The notes below the pieces were generated by a model. The model was not told the DNA's origin and did no database searches. It saw only the letters and a program-made list of their open reading frames with translations. Made by a program: the position numbers and the translations under genes. Positions 2,786 to 56,845 of a stretch of DNA of 64,000 nt are shown here, in pieces (positions within the stretch are counted from its first letter, which is position 1; the number at the start of each line of letters is the position of its first letter). Source of the stretch: Shigella phage JK32. The DNA lies in sequence record MK962753.1; one strand, written 5' to 3'.

Positions 2786-3580
2786 ATGCTTAAAGAAATG
2801 CTGCTCGAAGAAGCAAAACAGATCACCGTCGATGTTGCTCTCGATGATCTGTTTGAATCCGTCGAACTGTCGCCGGAAGTAAAAGAAAACTTTGGTACTA
2901 TCTACGCTCAAGCGGTAAAAGCTAATGCAGTTGCACTGGCAGAAAGCCACATTGAAAAAATTGCCGCTAAAGCCGATGAACTGGTAGAATCAAAGGTAGA
3001 AGAAGCTCGCACCGAAATCGAAGCTAAACTCTACGAAGATGCAGATAAATTCCTGAATCATCTGGGCGCTAAATGGCTGGCTGAAAATAAAGAAGCTGTT
3101 ACCCGTAATATTAAAGCGGATCTGTGCGAATCCCTGATTGGTTCCCTGAAAGATGTTTTCGTTACTCACAATGTTGTAGTACCGGAAGAATCTGTAGACG
3201 TTGTTGCGGAACTGGACGAAGCACTGAAAGAAGAAAAAGAGAAAACCGCTGAACTCTTTGACGCTAAACTGACTCTGGAAAGCGAAATTCGCGGCATGAA
3301 GCGTGAGCAAGCTATTACTGAAAGCACTCGTGATCTGTCCGATACCCAGAAAGAAAAAGTTACCGCGCTGATCGAAGGTCTGGAATATAGCGAAACCTTT
3401 GATAAGAAATTGACTGCAATTGTTGAGATGGTTGCCAAGAAAGAAGAAAAACCAACTCACATTGAAGAATCACTAAATACTGATGCCGACAAGCTGAATG
3501 TTATTGTTGAAGCTGTCGAAGAATCAGAGAAAAAAGCAACTGTAGATACTGGCGTTTCTCGCTACCTGAATTATCTCTAA
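2786..3580 (+). CDS. 22: Prohead core scaffold protein gp22
   Basis: 264 aa highly acidic, alpha-helical (E/K/A-rich) protein between 21 and 23. Confidence 0.85.
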   Translation: MLKEMLLEEAKQITVDVALDDLFESVELSPEVKENFGTIYAQAVKANAVALAESHIEKIAAKADELVESKVEEARTEIEAKLYEDADKFLNHLGAKWLAENKEAVTRNIKADLCESLIGSLKDVFVTHNVVVPEESVDVVAELDEALKEEKEKTAELFDAKLTLESEIRGMKREQAITESTRDLSDTQKEKVTALIEGLEYSETFDKKLTAIVEMVAKKEEKPTHIEESLNTDADKLNVIVEAVEESEKKATVDTGVSRYLNYL

Positions 3581-3597
3581 TATAATTCGATCTACTT

Positions 3598-3605
3598 TAT
3601 AAATA
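3598..3605 (+). promoter_or_regulatory. T4-type late promoter (TATAAATA) for gene 23
   Basis: Exact TATAAATA about 32 nt upstream of the gene 23 ATG. Confidence 0.7.
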
Positions 3606-3637
3606 CTTTAGGTTAACAACAAACAAGGTTTAAAAAC

Positions 3638-5224
3638 ATGAAAACTACCAAAGAACTGATGGAAAAATGGTCTCCGCTGCTGGAAAACGAAAAACTGCCG
3701 GAGATTGCAACCGCATCTAAACAGAAACTGGTTGCTAAAATTCTGGAATCTCAGGAAGCAGATTTTGCAGTAGATCCGATTTATAAAGATGAGAAAGTAG
3801 TAGAAGCGTTTGGTGGCTTTATCACCGAAGCAGAAGTTGCTGGCGACCACGGTTACGATGCTTCCAAAATTGCCGCAGGTCAGACTACTGGCGCAATCAC
3901 CAACGTAGGTCCGGCTGTTATCGGTATGGTTCGTCGTGCTATCCCTAACCTGATCGCATTTGACATTTGCGGCGTTCAGCCGATGAGCACCCCGACTAGC
4001 CAGATCTTTGCAATCCGTTCCGTATATGGTGGCGATCCGCTGAAAGAGGGTGCTAAAGAAGCATTCCATCCGATGTATTCCCCGGATGCGTTCCATAGCT
4101 CTCTAGCTGCTAAAGATGCAACCGCTGCTAACCCGGTAGGTACTGCATTCGCTAAACTGACTATGAATACTGCAATCAATGGAGGTGATATTGTTCATCA
4201 CACCTTTGCAGAAACTGGTATTGCATATCTGCAAAACGTAAGCAGTCAGGCTGTTACCCCGTCTAAACAGGGTCAGGAATCCGACGATGAAGCAGTAATG
4301 AAACTGATCGAAGAAGGCAAACTGGCTGAAATCGCACACGGTATGGCTACTTCCATCGCGGAACTGCAAGAAGGCTTTAACGGTTCCCAGAATAACCCGT
4401 GGAACGAAATGTCAATGCGTATTGACAAACAGGTTGTTGAAGCGAAATCTCGTCAACTGAAAGCCCGTTATTCTATCGAAGTTGCTCAGGATCTGCGTGC
4501 TGTACACGGTATGGACGCTGACGCCGAATTGAATGCTATCCTGGCTAACGAAGTTCTGCTGGAAATCAACCGTGAAATCGTTGACGTAATCAACTTTACC
4601 GCTCAGGTTGGTAAGACTGGCATGACTCAGACCGTTGGTTCTAAAGCTGGTGTATTCGATCTGCAAGATCCGATTGATACCCGTGGTGCTCGTTGGGCTG
4701 GTGAATCCTTCAAATCTCTGATCTACCAGATTGACAAAGAAGCTGCTGAAATCGCTCGTCAGACTGGTCGCGGTGCTGGTAACTTCATTATCGCTTCCCG
4801 TAACGTTGTAAACATTCTGGCTTCTGCTGATCAGGGTATTAGCGTAGCAATGCAGGGCGCTGCTCGTGGTCTGAATACCGACACCACTAAAGCTGTTTTC
4901 GCTGGTGTTCTGGCTGGTAAGTATAAAGTATTCATCGACCAGTATGCTCGTCAGGACTACTTCACCGTAGGTTACAAAGGCGACAACGAAATGGATGCTG
5001 GTATCTACTACGCACCGTATGTTGCTCTGACTCCGCTGCGTGCAACTGATCCGCAGTCTTTCCACCCGGTTCTGGGCTTCAAGACTCGTTACGGTATCGG
5101 TATTAACCCGTTTGCTGATAGCAAGTCTCAGTATCCGAGTGCTCGTATCACTTCCGGTATGTTGAGCAAAGAAAGCGTAGGTAAAAACGCTTACTTCCGC
5201 CGCGTATGGGTGAAAGGTTGCTAA
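3638..5224 (+). CDS. 23: Major capsid protein gp23
   Basis: 528 aa; long stretches match recalled T4 gp23 (e.g. GPAVIGMVRRAIPNLIAFDICGVQPM, SIAELQEGFNGS, NAYFRRVWVKG). Confidence 0.97.
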   Translation: MKTTKELMEKWSPLLENEKLPEIATASKQKLVAKILESQEADFAVDPIYKDEKVVEAFGGFITEAEVAGDHGYDASKIAAGQTTGAITNVGPAVIGMVRRAIPNLIAFDICGVQPMSTPTSQIFAIRSVYGGDPLKEGAKEAFHPMYSPDAFHSSLAAKDATAANPVGTAFAKLTMNTAINGGDIVHHTFAETGIAYLQNVSSQAVTPSKQGQESDDEAVMKLIEEGKLAEIAHGMATSIAELQEGFNGSQNNPWNEMSMRIDKQVVEAKSRQLKARYSIEVAQDLRAVHGMDADAELNAILANEVLLEINREIVDVINFTAQVGKTGMTQTVGSKAGVFDLQDPIDTRGARWAGESFKSLIYQIDKEAAEIARQTGRGAGNFIIASRNVVNILASADQGISVAMQGAARGLNTDTTKAVFAGVLAGKYKVFIDQYARQDYFTVGYKGDNEMDAGIYYAPYVALTPLRATDPQSFHPVLGFKTRYGIGINPFADSKSQYPSARITSGMLSKESVGKNAYFRRVWVKGC

Positions 5225-50715: not shown

Positions 50716-52959
50716 TTACAGTTTGCAAGATGAACATTCGCTAGCGTCTTCCGTACCATCAGCACCATCACGCACGTTAGCGTAATACAGTGTCTTGAGA
50801 CCGTAATATTGAGCAAACAACATATCATCTAATACATCAGCAATATCGACTTTACCAGTCTTATAAGTGCTTGGATCGTAGGATGTATTGGAACTAATCG
50901 CCTGATCTACAAACTTCTGCATGATCGCTGCCAGTGTCAGATAAGGCTTGTTACCTTTCTTGATCAGTGTCCAAAGCAGGTCAATAACATCAGCATTATT
51001 CTCTACGTTCGGAATAACCTGATTAAATTGCCCTTCTTTCGATCCTTTAACCGATACAATCCCGCGAGGCGGTTCAATACCGTTTGTGCTGTTAGACACC
51101 TGAGAAGACGACTCACAAGGCATCAGAGCCGAAAGCGTACTGTTACGAATGCCATATTTTTTCAGGTCTTCGCGCAGTTCTTCCCAATCCATCTCATACA
51201 CCGGATCAACCAGTTCATCTACTGTCTTTTTGTACCAGTCGATAGGCAGTTCACCGCGACCATAACGTGTTTCGTGCATCAGTTCGCAAGCACCCTTCTC
51301 TTTAGCCAGTTGCACACTAGCCTTAATCAGAGCATATTGCAAGCGTTCAAACGTTTTATGCGTAAACTCGTTAGCGTCTTCATATGTGAAGAAATTATCC
51401 GCCAGATACGATGCAAAGTTAGTCACGCCAACACCCAGAGAGCGACGTTTTTTGGCTGTCAGAGCTTGTTCTACAGGATAATCCTGATAATCTAACAGGT
51501 TGTCAAGTGCACGCACCATAACCATAGCAATGCGTTCTACTTCTTCCATGTTTTCGATATCGAAATTACCTAAAACATATGCTGCCAAAGTACATAGGCT
51601 GATCTCTGAATCATCACGCCCCATTGGTTTAGTAGGCAGTGCAATTTCGCAACACAGGTTAGATTGTTTAATCGGTGCTACATTGCGAATAAACGCCCCG
51701 TGATTGTTCATGTTGTCTGTGAATGCTGGATAGATTCGACCAGTGTTAAAACGTTCAATCGCCACCGCTAAAAATAGGTCTTCGGCTTTAACACGAGTTT
51801 TACGAACACTCGGATCTTTTTCCAGTTTTTCGTAAAGCTGGCGGAAACCTTCCTCATCTCGGAAGTACAGATCCCACAACAAGCCACCCGCAACATCTGG
51901 ACTAAACAGAGTAATGTAATCCCGTTTAAGGAATCGCTCTACCATCAGGTTATTAATCTGTACGCCGTAATCAAGATGACGAATGCGGTTATCTTCTACC
52001 CCTTTGTTATTCTTCAACACAATAAGACTTTCAAATTCTAAATGCCACATTGGGTAATAGAGAGTCGCTGCCCCGCCACGAATACCGCCTTGTGAGCATG
52101 ACTTAACGGCAGTCTGAAAATGTTTCCAGAATGGGATAACGCCAGTATGACGAACTTCACCATGCCCGATCTTAGATCCTTCCGCGCGAATCATGCCAGC
52201 GTTGATACCGATACCAGCACGCTTGCTAATATACTTGATGATTGCATTTGCGGTTTCATTAATACCCTGCAATGAATCATCAGATTCGATCACCACACAC
52301 GAACTAAATTGTCGTGTTGGAGTACGCACACCCGCCATAATCGGAGTAGGCAGAGAGATTTGCTTATTCGCAACAGCATTATAAAAATCAATCACATGTT
52401 CAAGTCGATTTTCTGTCTCTTCTTGATGTAAGCACATACCGATCAACATATACGCAAATTGCGGTGTTTCAATGATTTTCTTAGTGCTGCGATCCTGAAC
52501 AAGATATTTCTCTTTTAACTGCATCGCACCCGCATAGGTCATTTTAAAATCAAGTTTATGGTCGATAAATTTCTCCAAATATTCCACTTCTTCACGGGAA
52601 TACTTTTGCAGAATTTCACGATCATATTTTCCGGTTGCAATATTACGCTCAATATGGCTGTAAAAATCACTCGGTTGGAATTGACCGTATACTGATTTAC
52701 GAAGCGCGAACATTGCAAGGTTACTTGCTACATATTGATAATCAGGAGTTTCTACAGTGATGTTATCTGCGGCGACCTTAATCAATACTTTCTGGATATC
52801 ATTGGTAGACATACCTTCTGTCAGAAGTGGTTCAACCATATCAAACAATTCATATGGATCAACGTTATGACCTTCGGCTGCCGCTTCCAAAATTTTCATT
52901 ACTTTTTCTTTTTCAAACGGAACAGTCAGACCGGAAGACTTAACAACATTTTTAATCAT
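50716..52959 (-). CDS. nrdA: Ribonucleotide reductase large subunit NrdA
   Basis: 747 aa; ATP-cone N-terminus, class I RNR alpha features, C-terminal CSSCKL-type tail. Confidence 0.92.
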   Translation of the reverse strand: MIKNVVKSSGLTVPFEKEKVMKILEAAAEGHNVDPYELFDMVEPLLTEGMSTNDIQKVLIKVAADNITVETPDYQYVASNLAMFALRKSVYGQFQPSDFYSHIERNIATGKYDREILQKYSREEVEYLEKFIDHKLDFKMTYAGAMQLKEKYLVQDRSTKKIIETPQFAYMLIGMCLHQEETENRLEHVIDFYNAVANKQISLPTPIMAGVRTPTRQFSSCVVIESDDSLQGINETANAIIKYISKRAGIGINAGMIRAEGSKIGHGEVRHTGVIPFWKHFQTAVKSCSQGGIRGGAATLYYPMWHLEFESLIVLKNNKGVEDNRIRHLDYGVQINNLMVERFLKRDYITLFSPDVAGGLLWDLYFRDEEGFRQLYEKLEKDPSVRKTRVKAEDLFLAVAIERFNTGRIYPAFTDNMNNHGAFIRNVAPIKQSNLCCEIALPTKPMGRDDSEISLCTLAAYVLGNFDIENMEEVERIAMVMVRALDNLLDYQDYPVEQALTAKKRRSLGVGVTNFASYLADNFFTYEDANEFTHKTFERLQYALIKASVQLAKEKGACELMHETRYGRGELPIDWYKKTVDELVDPVYEMDWEELREDLKKYGIRNSTLSALMPCESSSQVSNSTNGIEPPRGIVSVKGSKEGQFNQVIPNVENNADVIDLLWTLIKKGNKPYLTLAAIMQKFVDQAISSNTSYDPSTYKTGKVDIADVLDDMLFAQYYGLKTLYYANVRDGADGTEDASECSSCKL

Positions 52960-53006
52960 ATTACCTCACTTCATATTTTAGCAGGAACAAGTTTATCCTC
53001 CATATT

Positions 53007-53022
53007 GGGGGCTTTCGCCCCC
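53007..53022. other. GC hairpin in the td-nrdA intergenic region
   Basis: GGGGGC-TTTC-GCCCCC; the T-run lies on the + strand side, so orientation relative to minus-strand genes is ambiguous. Confidence 0.35.
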
Positions 53023-53027
53023 TTTGT

Positions 53028-54248
53028 TTATACTGCCATTTGAGCGGTGATCGCTGGATGGCTTTGATAGTTGTGAATTTTAAAGTCTTTCGGAGTCTTT
53101 GTCAATACCTCATCTAAAGACTTAAATTCCGGCAACTCAATTGTTGGTTTATCAAACGGAACACGGTTTAATTGTTCCATAACTTGATCAAAGTGGTTTT
53201 TGTAAATGTGAGTATCTCCACCAGAGAAAATCAGTTCTCCTACCTCAAGATCACACATTTTCGCTATGATGTGGGTTAAAAGTGCATAGCTGGCAACATT
53301 AAAGGGCAAGCCCAAAAAGCTGTCTACGCTTCTCTGAAACCACATACAAGACAGTTTACCTTCATTGACGTAGAATTGCACGAAAGGATGACATACACCT
53401 AACACAGCATTATGTGTTCCTTGTACGTTCCATGAGTCAATAATGATCCGGCGATCCGTTGGATTGTTTTTAATTTGTTCAATCACGTTTTGTAACTGGT
53501 CTTCCCAAATCTTCGGTCGATAGATATATTCTTCATCGTCTTTAGGGCTTGATGTGTCTACGTCCATATTAACAAAGATCGTGGTATCCGGTGCGAACAT
53601 ATCCCCACCCAGATAATCACTATCAAGCAGATAACCGAAATAACCATCATCTACCCATTCCTGGAATCCCCACAAGCAATATGCATCATTAACAAAATTA
53701 GATTGAGTCTTCCAGTGGTCTGCTACCAGAATATAATCAAACTCTTCATAACGCATACCACGCCAGATAGCACATAAACGGTCTTCTGTGTCATTGGTTG
53801 GCGTAAAGTCTTCTACCCACGGGTGCTTAAATGTATGTGTATATTTGCTCTTAACGCGCTTAATTTTGATTTCACCGTGTGGATGAATCGGTTTGCGTCG
53901 CCAAGCCATACCATACATATTGCCGACATTATAACCATTGAATCGCAAAGGATTCTTTTCTTTCATATCAAGACAGTTGCCGCGCCAAATGTCGAAGGCT
54001 TCTTCGTCAAACTTACCGCGTGTAATTTCCTGTAAGCGACGGCGGTCAAGTGATCCCTCCATAAACCATAGCAACTCGCCAATTACAGAGGCTGTAGCCA
54101 TCTTTTTAGTGGTCAGTAAGGGGAAACCCTTGCTTAAATCGATTCGCATCTCTGCGCCGAATTTAGAGAGCGTACCTACCCCCGTGCGGTCTTCACGAGG
54201 CCAGCCATTATCAAGAACATCACGCAACAGTTTCAAATATTCTTTCAT
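53028..54248 (-). CDS. td: Thymidylate synthase with a large in-frame insertion
   Basis: N- and C-terminal parts align with T4 Td (DRTGTGT, catalytic C in GVCHPFVQFYV, RSVDSFLGLPFNVASYALL, PKDF...HP.I...MAV); roughly 125 extra residues between the YG..WR and NDRR motifs. Confidence 0.85.
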   Translation of the reverse strand: MKEYLKLLRDVLDNGWPREDRTGVGTLSKFGAEMRIDLSKGFPLLTTKKMATASVIGELLWFMEGSLDRRRLQEITRGKFDEEAFDIWRGNCLDMKEKNPLRFNGYNVGNMYGMAWRRKPIHPHGEIKIKRVKSKYTHTFKHPWVEDFTPTNDTEDRLCAIWRGMRYEEFDYILVADHWKTQSNFVNDAYCLWGFQEWVDDGYFGYLLDSDYLGGDMFAPDTTIFVNMDVDTSSPKDDEEYIYRPKIWEDQLQNVIEQIKNNPTDRRIIIDSWNVQGTHNAVLGVCHPFVQFYVNEGKLSCMWFQRSVDSFLGLPFNVASYALLTHIIAKMCDLEVGELIFSGGDTHIYKNHFDQVMEQLNRVPFDKPTIELPEFKSLDEVLTKTPKDFKIHNYQSHPAITAQMAV

Positions 54249-54489
54249 CCCACTTCACCTTTTTCTTATTGATTGCTTTCTTACGCAGTTTTGCTACTGT
54301 CTCGTCAATATCGATAAAGACAACGCCCGGATCGAATACAGTAACAGGTCTTGAAATGTCGCTATTTTCCTGTACTGGAAGCCATGACGCTTTAGCTTCA
54401 TCATAGAGATATTGTAAACCGTAATAATCTACGGCTACTGCGTAGTTTTCACTGGTAGCTGACCATAATTGAATAATGGTTATTTTCAT
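54220..54489 (-). CDS. Hypothetical protein (89 aa)
   Basis: Start at ATG 54489, TAATG-coupled to upstream mini-ORF. Confidence 0.45.
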   Translation of the reverse strand: MKITIIQLWSATSENYAVAVDYYGLQYLYDEAKASWLPVQENSDISRPVTVFDPGVVFIDIDETVAKLRKKAINKKKVKWDERIFETVA

Positions 54490-54581
54490 TATTGTTCCCG
54501 TCCGCAATGTAAACACCGACTACCAGCAAACATCAAAGATTCACCACAATGTTTGCACTCATAATCTGTCAGAATTTTCAT
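54489..54581 (-). CDS. Mini zinc-ribbon ORF (30 aa, CxxC...CxxC)
   Basis: ATG with RBS GAAGGTG; two CxxC pairs. Confidence 0.3.
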   Translation of the reverse strand: MKILTDYECKHCGESLMFAGSRCLHCGREQ

Positions 54582-54582
54582 G

Positions 54583-55152
54583 TTACACCTTCTTACGTTC
54601 TAAAATTTGTTCGCTGATCAGGTAATCATCAAGGAAGTAATTATGTTCTTCTTTTGTTGCAAAGTCAAAATATAATTCCTGAATCATTTCCTTAGAGATA
54701 CCAACATCATATTCAAATGGATCGTTGATTCCTGAACGTTGAACATACGTTAACACAATACGATCCGCAAAGTCAACCGCTTTTTCAATCAGGGAAGGTC
54801 CACCGATAACACTTACCAAACCTTGCGTTTTCTCTAGGGCTTTTAACAGATCCTTCAATTCAATTCCAGTGTACACATCAGGTTGGTCGCCGTTTTTGGC
54901 TTTAGGTGTCGGTTTGCTGGCATCGGTACTAATAACCACATTAAGACGACCTTCCAGTGCTTTAGGCAGACTTTCAAAGGTATTACGTCCCATTACTACC
55001 GCCGCAAGATCAACATCTCCCATAGTGCGCATTTTAAAGTTTTCCATGTCCTTTTTGATTGGACGACCCCACGGTAAACCGCCTTTAAAACCAAAAGCCC
55101 AGTTTTCATCTGACATTTTAGTGTCACCAATCGCAAATACACATTGAATCAT
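54583..55152 (-). CDS. frd: Dihydrofolate reductase
   Basis: DHFR motifs (GGLPWGRP, VMGRNTFESLP, VIGGPSL); synteny td-frd. Confidence 0.88.
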   Translation of the reverse strand: MIQCVFAIGDTKMSDENWAFGFKGGLPWGRPIKKDMENFKMRTMGDVDLAAVVMGRNTFESLPKALEGRLNVVISTDASKPTPKAKNGDQPDVYTGIELKDLLKALEKTQGLVSVIGGPSLIEKAVDFADRIVLTYVQRSGINDPFEYDVGISKEMIQELYFDFATKEEHNYFLDDYLISEQILERKKV

Positions 55153-55524: not shown

Positions 55525-55562
55525 GTACATTATACACTATTGCGTTACGCTGTCAACTCTTT
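55525..55562 (-). promoter_or_regulatory. Early promoter cassette, copy 14
   Basis: TTGACA-16 nt (contains GCGTAACGC palindrome)-TATAAT. Confidence 0.55.
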
Positions 55563-56783
55563 TTCAAAAGTTTTTACGATATACATGATAGTGCTCAATT
55601 CTGACGGCGCTACTGTTTCTGTGTAGCCATCCGGCATATCTTCTTTTGAGATATAGGAAGTTTTACCTTTCATCGCTTCCTTGATCTTGTTCTCTAATTC
55701 TAAGATCTTTTGACCATCTTGTAAAGTCAATTCATAAAAGATCTCGTGATCGAATTTAGATTTTGCTGATTGGTTTCTCATACGTTCTCTTGTTGTCAAA
55801 TTGGTTATTCCAAATTTAACACCTTCAAAAACGTCTCGTCTTAACAATTTTTGAATATATAATGTTCCTTGTTTTAAACGTTTGTAACCAGATTTCGTAC
55901 ACGAAGGACATCTCTTATGCGTTCTTGTTATGCTATGTATAGTTGGTGTCCAGACGCTACCACATCCACATAACATTGATATTCTTGTTGATGACCCGTT
56001 ATACTCATCGATAATTCCATTATATTTGATGTTTTCGGATTTACATATAGAGTATATTATTTTTTCATAGTGCTCTAATGGTTTAATTCTAAGACTTGAA
56101 TTATTTTTATATGCACATATTCTGCAATTATAACCTCTAAGAAAACTAGTTACATCAGTTGTATATGCGTGACCTCCGGTGCATTGTATAGTAAGTTTGG
56201 TATCATGTGTGATATCGTTATCAAGTAAAGTTATTATTTTGTAATTAATTGCTGAACATCTTTTCAAGATTTCTGATTTGTAATACGTTGATTTTTTATT
56301 CGTCTCTTGTATATTTTTTGTGTGACATTGTGGACATCTAGTTCCTTTCTTGGTGAAATGTGTTACTGTTGGTGTATATATGTGTCCATCTAAACATTCA
56401 ATCATTATTTTTGTTTTTAATTTATTCGAAGTCCATTCACCAACAACGCCACGATATTTCAACTTTTCGGATTTACATATTTCTATAATTTGTTTCTCTT
56501 GTTGTTCTTTTGTTATATATTCTCGCTTCTTGCTTTTTTGTTTTGCACATTTTGGGCATCTACTGCCTTGTTTTATACTAGATACGATAGGTTCCCAATA
56601 ATGACCGCACTTACAAAGTAAGGCCGTGCGAGTTCTATTCCCGATACATTCACCAATAAACCCCAAAAAGTTTATATCATCGGAAGAACACACATCGTGC
56701 ATAAATTTTTCATGTTCTAACATCTTTTTAATTTTGCTGGTGGATAGCATATTGACTATATCTTTAACGAAATATGTTTTCAT
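55545..56783 (-). CDS. Zn-ribbon-repeat protein with conserved C-terminal domain ending PDGYTET (paralogue of 20168..21253)
   Basis: Four tandem C.CGH.(W/Y).PT.........CP.C modules, then C-terminal LYIQKL...VKFGIT...R..R...PDGYTET domain; start at ATG 56783. Confidence 0.6.
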   Translation of the reverse strand: MKTYFVKDIVNMLSTSKIKKMLEHEKFMHDVCSSDDINFLGFIGECIGNRTRTALLCKCGHYWEPIVSSIKQGSRCPKCAKQKSKKREYITKEQQEKQIIEICKSEKLKYRGVVGEWTSNKLKTKIMIECLDGHIYTPTVTHFTKKGTRCPQCHTKNIQETNKKSTYYKSEILKRCSAINYKIITLLDNDITHDTKLTIQCTGGHAYTTDVTSFLRGYNCRICAYKNNSSLRIKPLEHYEKIIYSICKSENIKYNGIIDEYNGSSTRISMLCGCGSVWTPTIHSITRTHKRCPSCTKSGYKRLKQGTLYIQKLLRRDVFEGVKFGITNLTTRERMRNQSAKSKFDHEIFYELTLQDGQKILELENKIKEAMKGKTSYISKEDMPDGYTETVAPSELSTIMYIVKTFEKELTA

Positions 56784-56807
56784 TTTTATCCTCCGTTGTT
56801 TCGATGA

Positions 56808-56845
56808 GTGCATTATACATTATCTCGGATCGGTGTCAATACCTT
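56808..56845 (-). promoter_or_regulatory. Early promoter cassette, copy 15
   Basis: TTGACA-16 nt-TATAAT with conserved CGAAACAACGGAGGA leader. Confidence 0.55.

What the first reader, a model, noticed from the sequence alone, without database searches (positions are those of the whole stretch)
53028..54248. Thymidylate synthase carrying a ~125-residue in-frame insertion
The 406-aa Td aligns with T4 and E. coli thymidylate synthase at both ends (catalytic Cys in GVCHPFVQFYV). Between the YG.QWR loop and the ..NDRRII motif there are about 125 extra residues (KPIHPHGEIK ... YIYRPKIW) where T4 has about 8. The reading frame is continuous, so this is not the group I intron known in T4 td, and the insert lacks intein boundary residues. 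Part of the insert (CAIWRGMRYEEF) echoes the preceding FDIWRGNCLDMKE, hinting at an internal duplication or an inserted domain.
Basis: partly seen in the sequence, partly recalled or inferred. Interest (0 to 1): 0.55.

Follow-up and report, generated by a model that had tools for sequence, protein, structure and literature searches.

The report
Dead homing-endonuclease domain inside thymidylate synthase
The extra 132 residues in this phage's thymidylate synthase are the shrunken, apparently inactivated remains of a homing-endonuclease-like protein that was copied in-frame into a surface loop and is never spliced out, and longer intact versions in other phages still look mobile.

Summary
The td ORF (53028-54248, minus strand, 406 aa) is an intact thymidylate synthase with 132 residues (118-249) where insert-less enzymes have 5-33. 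The window is a Krischvirus (RB49/Phi1/JSE group), and all 58 relatives carry the insert, annotated only as "thymidylate synthase". It is not an intron, an intein or an internal duplication.

A profile built from unrelated sequences matches it at E=3e-15. It is a truncated version of a 245-285-aa module found at the same site in td of jumbo and other phages. That module is collinear with whole free-standing phage proteins annotated as HNH or homing endonucleases.

Long inserts keep an invariant polar set (R, D-K-D, Y-S, N). Short ones, including this one (D-S-D, F-A, D), have lost it but keep the hydrophobic core. AlphaFold predicts a well-folded domain on a two-strand stalk.

Within Asteriusvirus, UE-S1 carries the long module and about 20 relatives do not. 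The swapped block includes flanking td sequence, as expected for homing with co-conversion.

The best reading is a fixed, decayed, non-spliced relic of a homing element. The catalytic class (true HNH or not) is unproven. The closest precedent is the ShiLan insertion, where the endonuclease is out of frame.

The parts
53028..54248 (-). td gene: 406-aa thymidylate synthase plus stop codon, carrying the insert
   Evidence: ORF listing. PF00303 at 283.6 bits. PDB ThyA matches at E about 1e-68. phrog_160 at 7.7e-101.
53898..54248 (-). TS N-terminal core, residues 1-117 (R21, E58, Y112, W116 and R117 conserved)
   Evidence: Ungapped alignment to E. coli ThyA residues 1-82. Invariant columns in alignment A1. 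dN/dS 0.03 among Krischvirus genomes.
53898..53993 (-). Upstream signature DIWRGNCLDMKEKNPLRFNGYNVGNMYGMAWR (residues 86-117), which travels with the insert
   Evidence: Present in 24 of 26 insert-bearing TS and in 0 of 105 insert-less TS once the single regex false positive is read. It lies inside the swapped block in UE-S1 versus 121Q.
53502..53897 (-). The insert: residues 118-249 (132 aa), a truncated endonuclease-like module
   Evidence: Coordinates. Module profile without Krischvirus sequences gives E=3.3e-15, aligning Td 129-252 to profile positions 73-208. tblastn to jumbo-phage td inserts gives E=4e-12. phmmer gives 7e-11 to 1e-3 against 12 other proteins, 11 of them TS with an insert at the same site and one free-standing (P0012).
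53856..53897 (-). N-terminal stalk strand RKPIHPHGEIKIKR (residues 118-131)
   Evidence: Predicted beta strands 118-120 and 126-130. Conserved as KP..PHG....K+ in most insert-bearing TS but absent from free-standing proteins.
53781..53855 (-). Residue-132-156 remnant aligned to the end of the lost N-terminal beta module (KD..PS..G.GY.G region)
   Evidence: Alignments. About 60 residues of the beta-barrel module (P0022 insert positions about 16-75) are missing here.
53640..53780 (-). Helical core RLCAIWRGM...DHWKTQSNFVNDAYCLWGFQEWVDDGY (residues 157-203); hydrophobic core residues retained
   Evidence: Helices 153-171, 177-180, 182-189 and 195-200, with pLDDT about 86-98. W109, M112, W135, N140, F141, D144 and F151 equivalents are retained. 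The site of the RB49-type 4-codon indel lies here, at about 53724-53747.
53556..53627 (-). Degenerate motif LDSDYLGGDMFAPDTTIFVNMDVD (residues 208-231), counterpart of the invariant LDKDY.G...YSP.TC.FI.....N
   Evidence: K165 is S, Y173 is F, S174 is A and N186 is D, while D164, D166, T177 and F180 are kept. Strands 206-209 and 224-227 are predicted.
53502..53534 (-). C-terminal stalk strand EEYIYRPKIWE (residues 239-249); the roughly 40-aa NUMOD-like tail of the long form is missing before it
   Evidence: Strands 241-245 and 248-250. The RP.I motif is conserved in insert-bearing TS.
53031..53501 (-). TS C-terminal core, residues 250-406 (R266/R267, C286, H287, R306, S307, D309, N317, H347 and Y349 conserved)
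   Evidence: Ungapped alignment to E. coli residues 110-212 and onward. Invariant columns in A1. dN/dS 0.03. The first roughly 100 codons correspond to the recombinant tract seen in JSE and GEC-3S.

Best explanation
The insert is the fixed, N- and C-terminally truncated, apparently inactivated remnant of a homing-endonuclease-like protein. That protein was copied in-frame into a surface loop of the thymidylate synthase small domain, the loop between the YG..WR motif and the DQ helix. It is translated as part of Td and is not removed at the RNA or the protein level. It folds as a separate alpha/beta domain held on a two-strand stalk, and the TS catalytic machinery stays intact. The ancestral full-length module is about 245-285 aa. 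It consists of a small beta-barrel, a helical region, a D-K-D...Y-S...N element and a NUMOD-like tail, and it still exists at the same site in td of jumbo and other phages. There it appears to spread between td alleles by recombination that also carries over flanking td sequence (homing with co-conversion). In Krischvirus the element has gone through the usual decay phase of the homing cycle: the conserved polar residues are lost and the peripheral sub-domains are deleted. It cannot easily be removed precisely, so a folded passenger domain persists under relaxed but non-zero constraint. Shown here: the homology, the truncation, the residue losses, the predicted fold, the fixation in the genus, and the presence/absence with a swapped block in Asteriusvirus. 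Inferred: that the long module is or was a nuclease, that homing was the mechanism, and that the relic now has no function of its own.
For: Homology of the window's insert to the module:
- A profile made only from long inserts and free-standing proteins hits Td 129-252 at E=3.3e-15 and hits no other window ORF.
- tblastn gives E=4e-12 to jumbo-phage td.
- An exhaustive phmmer search of 1.84 billion representatives returns 13 hits, 12 of them TS with an insert at the same site.

Nature of the module:
- The long insert matches PHROG 'HNH endonuclease' families at 4e-32, 7e-25 and 8e-21.
- 1,307 phage records match it, mostly free-standing genes annotated as HNH or homing endonuclease. The ones examined sit in typical HEG positions.
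- It is collinear end to end with those whole proteins.
- The named BFVD fold matches are homing endonucleases.

Decay:
- 12 of 13 inserts of 194 aa or more keep R115, D164-K165-D166 and Y173-S174; N186 is kept in 10 of them (P0019/P0020 read S).
- All 13 inserts of 176 aa or less, plus P0004 (228 aa), have lost the set but keep the hydrophobic core.
- Short forms sit next to long forms in several clades of the core-only tree.

Fold: pLDDT 91 and pTM 0.90, with the insert ordered.

Constraint:
- In Krischvirus, dN/dS is 0.27 in the insert and 0.03 in the cores.
- In the long form, the helical+DKD part has dN/dS 0.08, against a core of 0.06.

Mobility:
- UE-S1 (1,554-bp td) and about 20 congeners (930-bp td) show 96-98% nt identity in the outer td and 95% upstream. 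The central block, made of the signature, the insert and about 90 downstream codons, is only 42-53% identical.
- P0027 (with insert) and P0121 (without) are 81% identical in the core.
- dS of the insert (0.54) is lower than dS of the flanks (1.1-1.6) between UE-S1 and phiKp_21.

Not an intron or intein.
Against: - The nuclease identity of the module family is unproven. No Pfam or NCBIfam model recognises it, HNH models included.
- The canonical catalytic His is absent even in free-standing members, which have D-K-D.
- hhalign to the I-HmuI HNH segment gives 0.2% probability.
- No member is known to me to have been tested biochemically.
- The Krischvirus insert still has dN/dS well below 1. The same roughly 130-aa core has been kept independently in several lineages. 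That could mean a retained or new function instead of a pure passenger.
- The dN/dS estimates rest on 9 closely related genomes and on one pair, with pooled non-independent comparisons.
- The core tree is a simple NJ tree without support values.
- The Asteriusvirus block swap shows recombination. It does not show that an endonuclease caused it.
Confidence: 0.74

Rival explanations
1. Exapted domain. The endonuclease-derived core lost catalysis but was kept because it now does something useful for the phage. Candidates are nucleic-acid binding (for example regulation of td mRNA), docking Td into the dNTP-synthesis complex, or keeping the td site occupied so that active relatives cannot cut and re-invade it.
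For: dN/dS in the insert is 0.27, which is below neutrality. The domain is confidently folded. At least three separate lineages appear to have reduced independently to the same roughly 127-144-aa core while keeping the same hydrophobic residues. The insert is fixed in all 58 Krischvirus genomes.
Against: Constraint is about nine times weaker than in the TS core. The conserved polar residues of the family are gone and no new conserved polar set is evident. In-frame indels and many substitutions are tolerated within the genus. Purifying selection of this size is also expected simply because a misfolding internal domain would damage an essential enzyme. No partner or ligand is indicated by any search.
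Confidence: 0.2
2. The Krischvirus insert is still an active endonuclease domain that drives its own spread.
For: It is homologous to the module and folded. A recombinant tract starts at its 3' edge in JSE and GEC-3S.
Against: It lacks the N-terminal beta module and the NUMOD-like tail present in every long and free-standing member. K165, Y173, S174, N186 and R115, which are invariant in those members, are substituted. All known relatives already carry it, so there is no empty site to invade in this genus. Constraint is relaxed.
Confidence: 0.03
3. A self-splicing element (a mini-intein, or a group I intron with an open frame) that is removed, so that mature Td is of normal size.
For: The size (132 aa) is in the mini-intein range. 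td is a classic host gene for the T4 group I intron (PMC2988022).
Against: There is no Hint or intein Pfam hit. The insert begins with Arg and is followed by Asp, and there is no HN[CST] anywhere. Rfam finds no match at E<=1 on either strand. The insert is homologous to a different protein family in the td reading frame and is predicted to fold as a domain continuous with TS.
Confidence: 0.01
4. An ordinary lineage-specific expansion of the variable TS small domain, unrelated to mobile elements, like the roughly 50-residue insert known in Lactobacillus casei TS.
For: The loop is length-variable even without the module: 5, 10-11 or 27-33 residues. The L. casei enzyme is 52 residues longer than E. 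coli ThyA before the shared C-terminal core.
Against: There is significant sequence homology to a family of free-standing phage endonuclease-annotated proteins. The long forms are collinear with those proteins. There is presence/absence with block replacement inside one genus.
Confidence: 0.02

Closest known systems
ShiLan domain in actinophage DNA methylase genes (Arsenault, Gosselin and Gogarten 2025, PMC11855218)
   Same: An insertion in a conserved phage enzyme gene that reads through in-frame with the host gene. It has no intein or intron features, seems to be retained in the protein, shows a disjunct homing-like distribution, and is tied to an HNH-type endonuclease.
   Different: In ShiLan the endonuclease is encoded in another reading frame, and the in-frame translation is a low-confidence loop. 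Here the endonuclease-like module is in the td frame itself, is predicted to fold confidently as an internal domain, and has no out-of-frame ORF. The host gene is td. The window's copy is a decayed, fixed relic.
Inteins carrying homing endonuclease domains in phage nucleotide-metabolism genes (for example the mycobacteriophage inteins of PMC5050341)
   Same: In-frame insertion next to highly conserved motifs of an essential enzyme. Spread by homing. A life cycle of invasion, endonuclease decay and shrinkage to a minimal form.
   Different: There is no Hint splicing domain, no Cys/Ser/Thr or His-Asn junction residues, and no evidence of protein splicing. The host enzyme tolerates the passenger in a surface loop instead of excising it.
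T4 td group I intron with I-TevI, and free-standing T-even HEGs such as mobE, seg genes and hef (PMC2988022, PMC2790892)
   Same: The same target gene or gene cluster (frd-td-nrdA) in T4-like phages. Homing with co-conversion of flanking exon sequence.
   Different: I-TevI is a GIY-YIG enzyme inside a self-splicing intron at a different td position. Free-standing HEGs lie between genes. This element sits inside the coding sequence and stays in the protein. No intron was detected.
I-HmuI-type and PacI-type HNH (beta-beta-alpha-metal) endonucleases
   Different: There is no Pfam HNH match, and no His at the expected position (D-K-D instead). hhalign gives 0.2% probability and Foldseek against PDB is negative. 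Membership in the HNH superfamily is therefore not established.
Small-domain insertion of Lactobacillus casei thymidylate synthase
   Same: Extra residues in the surface-exposed, length-variable small domain of TS that do not prevent catalysis. The length difference is seen; the description is from my own knowledge.
   Different: It is about 50 residues, lies a little upstream in the fold, and is not known to derive from a mobile element. Homology to the present insert was not tested here.

Membership tests
Thymidylate synthase ThyA/Td (PF00303) | Significant match to the family profile over both halves of the fold | tested here: met
   PF00303 at 283.6 bits against a cut-off of 24.3, in two stretches. 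E. coli ThyA matches at E=3e-68.
Thymidylate synthase ThyA/Td (PF00303) | Catalytic Cys-His and the dUMP/folate-binding residues (E. coli R21, E58, Y94, R126/R127, C146, H147, R166, S167, D169, N177, H207, Y209) | tested here: met
   Ungapped alignment with a +140 offset gives R266/R267, C286, H287, R306, S307, D309, N317, H347 and Y349. R21, E58 and Y112 are also present. All are invariant in alignment A1. The E. coli residue roles are from established knowledge.
Thymidylate synthase ThyA/Td (PF00303) | Enzymatic activity with the insert present | not testable with these tools
   Inferred only, from intact catalytic residues, core dN/dS of 0.03 and the frd-td-nrdA context.
Intein | Hint splicing domain; Cys/Ser at the intein N-terminus; His-Asn followed by Cys/Ser/Thr at the C-terminal junction | tested here: not met
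   No Hint or intein Pfam hit at E<=1. The insert starts with Arg, the following residue is Asp, and there is no HN[CST] in the protein.
Group I intron (T4 td type) | Structured ribozyme core; interruption of the reading frame | tested here: not met
   Rfam cmscan finds no match at E<=1 on either strand of 52800-54600. The ORF is continuous in the window and in all 9 aligned td genes (window plus 8 relatives).
Phage endonuclease-like module family (PHROG 2081/953/374, annotated 'HNH endonuclease') | Sequence homology to the family | tested here: met
   Window insert against a profile of long inserts plus free-standing members: E=3.3e-15. Long insert against PHROGs: 4e-32, 7e-25 and 8e-21. The window insert alone against PHROGs reaches only E=0.25.
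Phage endonuclease-like module family (PHROG 2081/953/374, annotated 'HNH endonuclease') | Full architecture: N-terminal beta module, helical region, D-K-D...Y-S...N element and C-terminal tail | tested here: not met
   The window insert lacks the beta module and the tail. It keeps only the helical region and a degenerate D-S-D...F-A...D element.
Phage endonuclease-like module family (PHROG 2081/953/374, annotated 'HNH endonuclease') | Invariant polar residues R115, K165, Y173, S174 and N186 (presumed active site) | tested here: not met
   In the window these are gap, S, F, A and D. They are conserved in 12 of 13 long TS inserts (N186 reads S in P0019/P0020) and in all four free-standing phage-record proteins; the free-standing P0012 differs only at S174 (G).
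HNH / beta-beta-alpha-metal nuclease superfamily | Recognition by HNH sequence profiles, and a catalytic His at the end of the first strand | tested here: not met
   No Pfam HNH family hit for long inserts or free-standing members at E<=10. D-K-D stands where D-H is expected. hhalign to I-HmuI residues 57-168 gives 0.2% probability.
HNH / beta-beta-alpha-metal nuclease superfamily | Beta-beta-alpha fold of the core | tested here: inconclusive
Homing element (mobile by endonuclease-driven gene conversion) | Presence/absence among close relatives, with co-converted flanks | tested here: met
   This applies to the long form only: UE-S1 against 121Q and about 20 congeners, and P0027 against P0121. 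For the window's genus the insert is fixed in all 58 genomes, but JSE and GEC-3S show a swapped tract at its 3' edge.
Homing element (mobile by endonuclease-driven gene conversion) | Site-specific cleavage of the empty allele by the encoded protein | not testable with these tools
   This needs biochemistry or phage crosses.
ShiLan-type read-through insertion (PMC11855218) | Endonuclease encoded in an alternative frame inside the insertion | tested here: not met
   No out-of-frame ORF longer than 79 aa overlaps the UE-S1 insert. In the window insert none exceeds 41 aa on the td strand; a 70-aa ORF on the opposite strand overlaps its edge. The module is in the td frame.

The most novel reading that the evidence does not exclude
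The long forms of this insert are a previously undescribed kind of mobile element. They would be a complete homing endonuclease that lives in-frame inside an essential enzyme with no intron and no intein. It would be produced as an internal domain of the thymidylate synthase dimer, cut insert-less td alleles of co-infecting phages, and be copied in together with flanking td sequence. Under this reading the Krischvirus domain in this window is the end state of that life cycle, possibly kept because an occupied site is immune to re-invasion. The family's D-K-D...Y-S...N centre would then be a new His-less catalytic variant.
Probability: 0.4. Interest if true: 0.8.

Novelty: new variant of a known kind. 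Interest (0 to 1): 0.6.

Why it matters
Homing endonuclease genes are thought to survive inside essential genes only by hiding in a self-splicing intron or intein, or by sitting between genes. Here a whole endonuclease-like protein has been tolerated as a permanent internal domain of thymidylate synthase, with no splicing.

Public genomes appear to hold the complete series. There are intact modules under strong constraint that differ between close relatives. There are intermediates. There are several apparently independent roughly 130-aa dead cores, including the one fixed in RB49-like coliphages since at least the 2003 genome record.

That gives a natural system for three questions. The first is how enzymes absorb large domain insertions. 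The second is the invasion-decay cycle of selfish elements. The third is whether a nuclease can work while embedded in a host protein.

It also has a practical side. The roughly 47-kDa 'thymidylate synthase' of Krischvirus and the 517-559-aa versions in jumbo phages are currently annotated without any mention of the embedded module. The large free-standing family labelled 'HNH endonuclease' lacks the canonical His and has no Pfam model or solved structure.

Tried and rejected
- Intein: no Pfam Hint hit and no junction residues.
- Group I intron: Rfam is negative.
- Hidden out-of-frame endonuclease as in ShiLan: no such ORF.
- Word-index protein search with the Krischvirus insert alone found nothing. 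With the long insert it found only 3 TS fragments. It was therefore useless for collecting free-standing relatives; the phage-record tblastn and the exhaustive HMMER search did that job.
- Pfam and NCBIfam on the insert, the long insert and four free-standing proteins did not recognise the shared module. Only the NUMOD-like tail of one protein was recognised.
- A profile of the module against PDB sequences gave nothing meaningful.
- hhalign of the module against the I-HmuI HNH segment gave 0.2% probability.
- Foldseek against PDB gave nothing.
- The AFDB fold library was not available.
- The RB49 genome-snapshot paper could not be read.
- The T4-like genome, T4 mobile-element and jumbo-phage papers that I could read do not mention the td insert.
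- No free-standing copy of the module is encoded elsewhere in the window.
Full report
**Observation.** The minus-strand ORF 53028..54248 encodes a 406-aa protein. Pfam PF00303 matches it in two stretches at 283.6 bits. E. coli ThyA aligns without gaps to residues 1-82 and 250-352 and onward, with query 250 matching E. coli 110. All residues that established TS enzymology treats as catalytic or substrate-binding are present, and they are invariant in a 26-sequence alignment: R21, E58, Y112, R266/R267, C286, H287, R306, S307, D309, N317, H347 and Y349. Between W116-R117 and D250-Q251 lie 132 residues (window 53502-53897). In 105 insert-less relatives this interval is 5-33 residues. The gene sits in the T4-type order frd - small ORF - td - nrdA.

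**Source genome and relatives.** The td DNA is 95-98% identical to 45 phage records and 80-95% identical to 13 more. Every one I fetched belongs to the genus Krischvirus (RB49, Phi1, JSE, GEC-3S, ECD7 and others). All 58 cover the whole gene, so the insert is fixed in the genus and is not an assembly error. Records call the gene 'thymidylate synthase' or 'hypothetical protein', with no comment on the insert. RB49-type genomes carry an additional in-frame 4-codon indel inside the insert.

**What it is not.**
- BLASTP finds no similarity between the insert and the preceding TS segment, so the suggested internal duplication is not supported.
- No intein or Hint domain is detected. The insert starts with Arg and is followed by Asp, and there is no His-Asn-Cys/Ser/Thr junction.
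- Rfam finds no RNA family on either strand.
- No alternative-frame ORF of note lies inside it.

**What it is.** The insert alone matched, at about 33% identity (E=4e-12), the inside of td genes of two jumbo phages: Escherichia phage UE-S1 (Asteriusvirus) and Klebsiella phage phiKp_21 (Alcyoneusvirus). Four further records in that band, including three Vibrio phages, were not listed. The two jumbo-phage Td proteins are 517 aa, with a roughly 245-aa insert at exactly the same site.

An exhaustive phmmer search of 1.84 billion representative proteins with the window's insert found only 13 proteins. Twelve are TS of 406-525 aa with an insert at this site (one is a 288-aa fragment), and one is a free-standing 275-aa protein. 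A search with the full Td added more insert-bearing enzymes of 401-559 aa.

The long insert hits three PHROG families annotated 'HNH endonuclease' at 4e-32, 7e-25 and 8e-21. Pfam and NCBIfam see nothing. It also matches 1,307 phage records, mostly free-standing genes annotated as HNH or homing endonuclease. The four I examined sit in classic homing-endonuclease positions: between DNA-packaging genes, between nrdB and the dUTPase gene, beside a two-piece terminase gene, and among small hypothetical genes.

A multiple alignment shows that the long inserts are collinear, end to end, with these whole proteins. The shared parts are:
- a beta-rich N-terminal module;
- a helical region (LY..W..M..RCY...V..RW.NF.NF..D);
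- an LDKDY.G...YSP.TC.FI.....N element;
- a tail resembling the I-HmuI NUMOD-like domain (PF22083 in Sophrita gp146, 9e-8).

A profile built only from long inserts and free-standing proteins, with no Krischvirus sequence in it, finds the window's Td at E=3.3e-15. It aligns residues 129-252 to profile positions 73-208 and matches no other ORF in the window. The window's insert is therefore a shortened member. It keeps the two stalk segments, a remnant of the end of the beta module, the helical region and the beta-beta element. It has lost about 60 residues of the beta module and the roughly 40-residue tail.

**Signs of decay.** I tabulated the residues that are invariant across long inserts and free-standing proteins against insert length.
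- Twelve of the 13 TS inserts of 194 aa or more keep R115, D164-K165-D166 and Y173-S174, as do all four free-standing phage-record proteins. N186 is kept in 10 of those 12 (P0019/P0020 read S).
- All 13 inserts of 176 aa or less, and the 228-aa P0004, have lost that set.
- The window has D-S-D, F-A and D at those positions.
- Hydrophobic positions (W109, W135, F141, F151, F180) and T177 are kept almost everywhere.

Structural residues conserved and polar centre lost is the usual signature of an inactivated but still folded domain.

In a tree of the TS core with the insert removed, short inserts sit next to long ones in several clades: P0007 with P0021/22, P0013 with P0005, and the Krischvirus group with P0019/20. 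This suggests repeated independent shrinkage to a similar roughly 127-144-aa core. It is an NJ tree without support values.

**Fold.** AlphaFold2 with a 26-sequence alignment gives mean pLDDT 91 and pTM 0.90 for the window's Td. The insert is ordered. Strands 118-120/126-130 and 241-245/248-250 form the entry and exit stalk, with four helices and two further strands between them. The long module, folded alone, gives pLDDT 91.6 and pTM 0.87.

**Is the family really HNH?** This is not settled. No Pfam HNH model matches. The position expected to hold the catalytic His carries D-K-D even in free-standing members. hhalign to the I-HmuI HNH segment gives 0.2% probability. A profile search of PDB sequences finds nothing. 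In favour are a weak phmmer hit of one member to I-HmuI (E=0.0018, largely through the tail) and the PacI fold match. I therefore call it 'homing-endonuclease-like' and leave the catalytic class open.

**Selection.** Among nine Krischvirus td genes, pooled Nei-Gojobori dN/dS is 0.03 for each TS core (excluding two recombinants for the C-terminal core) and 0.27 for the insert. The insert is about nine-fold relaxed but not neutral. That fits a passenger domain that must still fold inside an essential enzyme, and it does not exclude a residual function.

Between UE-S1 and phiKp_21, the long insert's helical+DKD region has dN/dS 0.08, close to the TS core's 0.06. The insert's dS (0.54) is lower than that of the flanking core (1.1-1.6). 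The long module therefore appears functionally constrained, and it was shared more recently than the backbone. This rests on a single pair.

**Mobility.**
- In Asteriusvirus, UE-S1's td is 1,554 bp, while about 20 congeners (121Q, PBECO4, slurp01 and others) have a 930-bp td.
- UE-S1 and 121Q are 96-98% identical in td codons 1-90, 93-98% from about codon 464 to the end, and 95% identical in the upstream kilobase.
- The whole central block is only 42-53% identical. It holds the NCLD...RFNG...GNMY..WR signature, the 245-aa module and about 90 codons of downstream TS core. A foreign td segment carrying the module has replaced the resident one. This is the pattern left by homing with co-conversion, although recombination without an endonuclease cannot be excluded.
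- The same upstream signature accompanies 24 of 26 insert-bearing enzymes and none of 105 insert-less ones.
- P0027 carries a 284-aa module in an otherwise canonical TS that is 81% identical to the insert-less P0121. It lies on a phage-like contig next to a DHFR gene.
- In Krischvirus itself, JSE and GEC-3S carry a 59-80%-identity tract that begins at the 3' edge of the insert and runs for about 100 codons.
- The window insert's GC content (0.41) equals that of the genome (0.405), so the acquisition is old.

**Comparison with known systems.** The nearest described case is the ShiLan domain of actinophage methylase genes. It is an in-frame read-through insertion that is neither intein nor intron and behaves like a homing element, but its HNH endonuclease is encoded out of frame and the in-frame product is a poorly predicted loop (PMC11855218). 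Here the endonuclease-like protein is itself in the host frame and is predicted to fold as an internal domain. Inteins share the in-frame position and the decay cycle but splice. The T4 td intron with I-TevI shares the target gene but uses RNA splicing, a GIY-YIG enzyme and a different site. The papers I could read on T4-like genomes, T4 mobile elements and jumbo phages do not mention this insert.

**Verdict.** The finding is real. The duplication idea is wrong. The best-supported explanation, at about 0.75, is a fixed, decayed, non-spliced relic of a homing-endonuclease-like module in a tolerant loop of TS. The main rival, at about 0.2, is that the retained core has been put to a new use. The window's own copy is probably inert. 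The interest lies in the series it belongs to, which suggests an endonuclease gene that persists in-frame inside an essential enzyme without any splicing device.

Noticed in passing
L009 (JSE) 447-1670 and L010 (GEC-3S) 447-1670, corresponding to window ~53170-53530: The td genes of JSE and GEC-3S are 96-100% identical to the window except for a tract of about 100 codons that begins right at the 3' edge of the insert. There nucleotide identity drops to 59-80% and the protein resembles a different td lineage (FFMRSNDLFLGNPFN, CGDCHIY). It looks like a gene-conversion tract next to the insert.
   Followed up: partly
window 55545-56813 (minus strand): A 422-aa ORF two genes upstream of frd matches phrog_681 'endonuclease' (1.7e-82) and phrog_559 'HNH endonuclease' (4.6e-30). 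It has three CapR-homology domains and a treble-clef zinc finger. It is probably a free-standing homing endonuclease gene, about 1.3 kb from td. It is unrelated to the td module (no hit).
   Followed up: partly
window 54220-54516 (minus strand): A 98-aa ORF overlaps the td start by 29 nt. It is conserved in all Krischvirus records examined as a 'hypothetical protein' (phrog_16012, 1.4e-58, unknown function). It has no Pfam match.
   Followed up: no
window ~53724-53747 (Td residues 168-175); L008, L012 and L013: RB49, ECD7 and Makalu_003 have four extra codons (SEYN-L/Q-F in place of Y-I) inside the helical part of the insert. This shows that in-frame indels are tolerated there.
   Followed up: partly
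P0012 (275-aa free-standing protein from the exhaustive search): This protein carries the same sub-modules in the opposite order: the helical+LDKD part first and the beta module with the KD..PS..G.GYLG motif second. The sub-domains therefore appear to be separable units that have been shuffled.
   Followed up: no
L001 (UE-S1) 3455-5008 versus L002 (phiKp_21) 3455-5008: Synonymous divergence of the long insert (dS 0.54) is about half that of the flanking TS core (1.1-1.6) between an Escherichia and a Klebsiella jumbo phage. This implies the insert was exchanged more recently than the td backbone.
   Followed up: partly
window 53898-54248 versus 53031-53897: The N-terminal TS core has a higher GC content (0.463; GC3 0.475) than the insert (0.41) and the C-terminal core (0.39), against a window average of 0.405. 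This could be another trace of mosaic ancestry within td.
   Followed up: no
Free-standing family, e.g. L003 1468-2142, L004 1507-2043, L005 1396-2091, L006 1471-2007: A large phage protein family (more than 1,300 records) is annotated 'HNH endonuclease', yet it has an invariant D-K-D in place of the catalytic D-H, no Pfam or NCBIfam model, and no close solved structure. The annotation may be propagated without the defining residue.
   Followed up: partly
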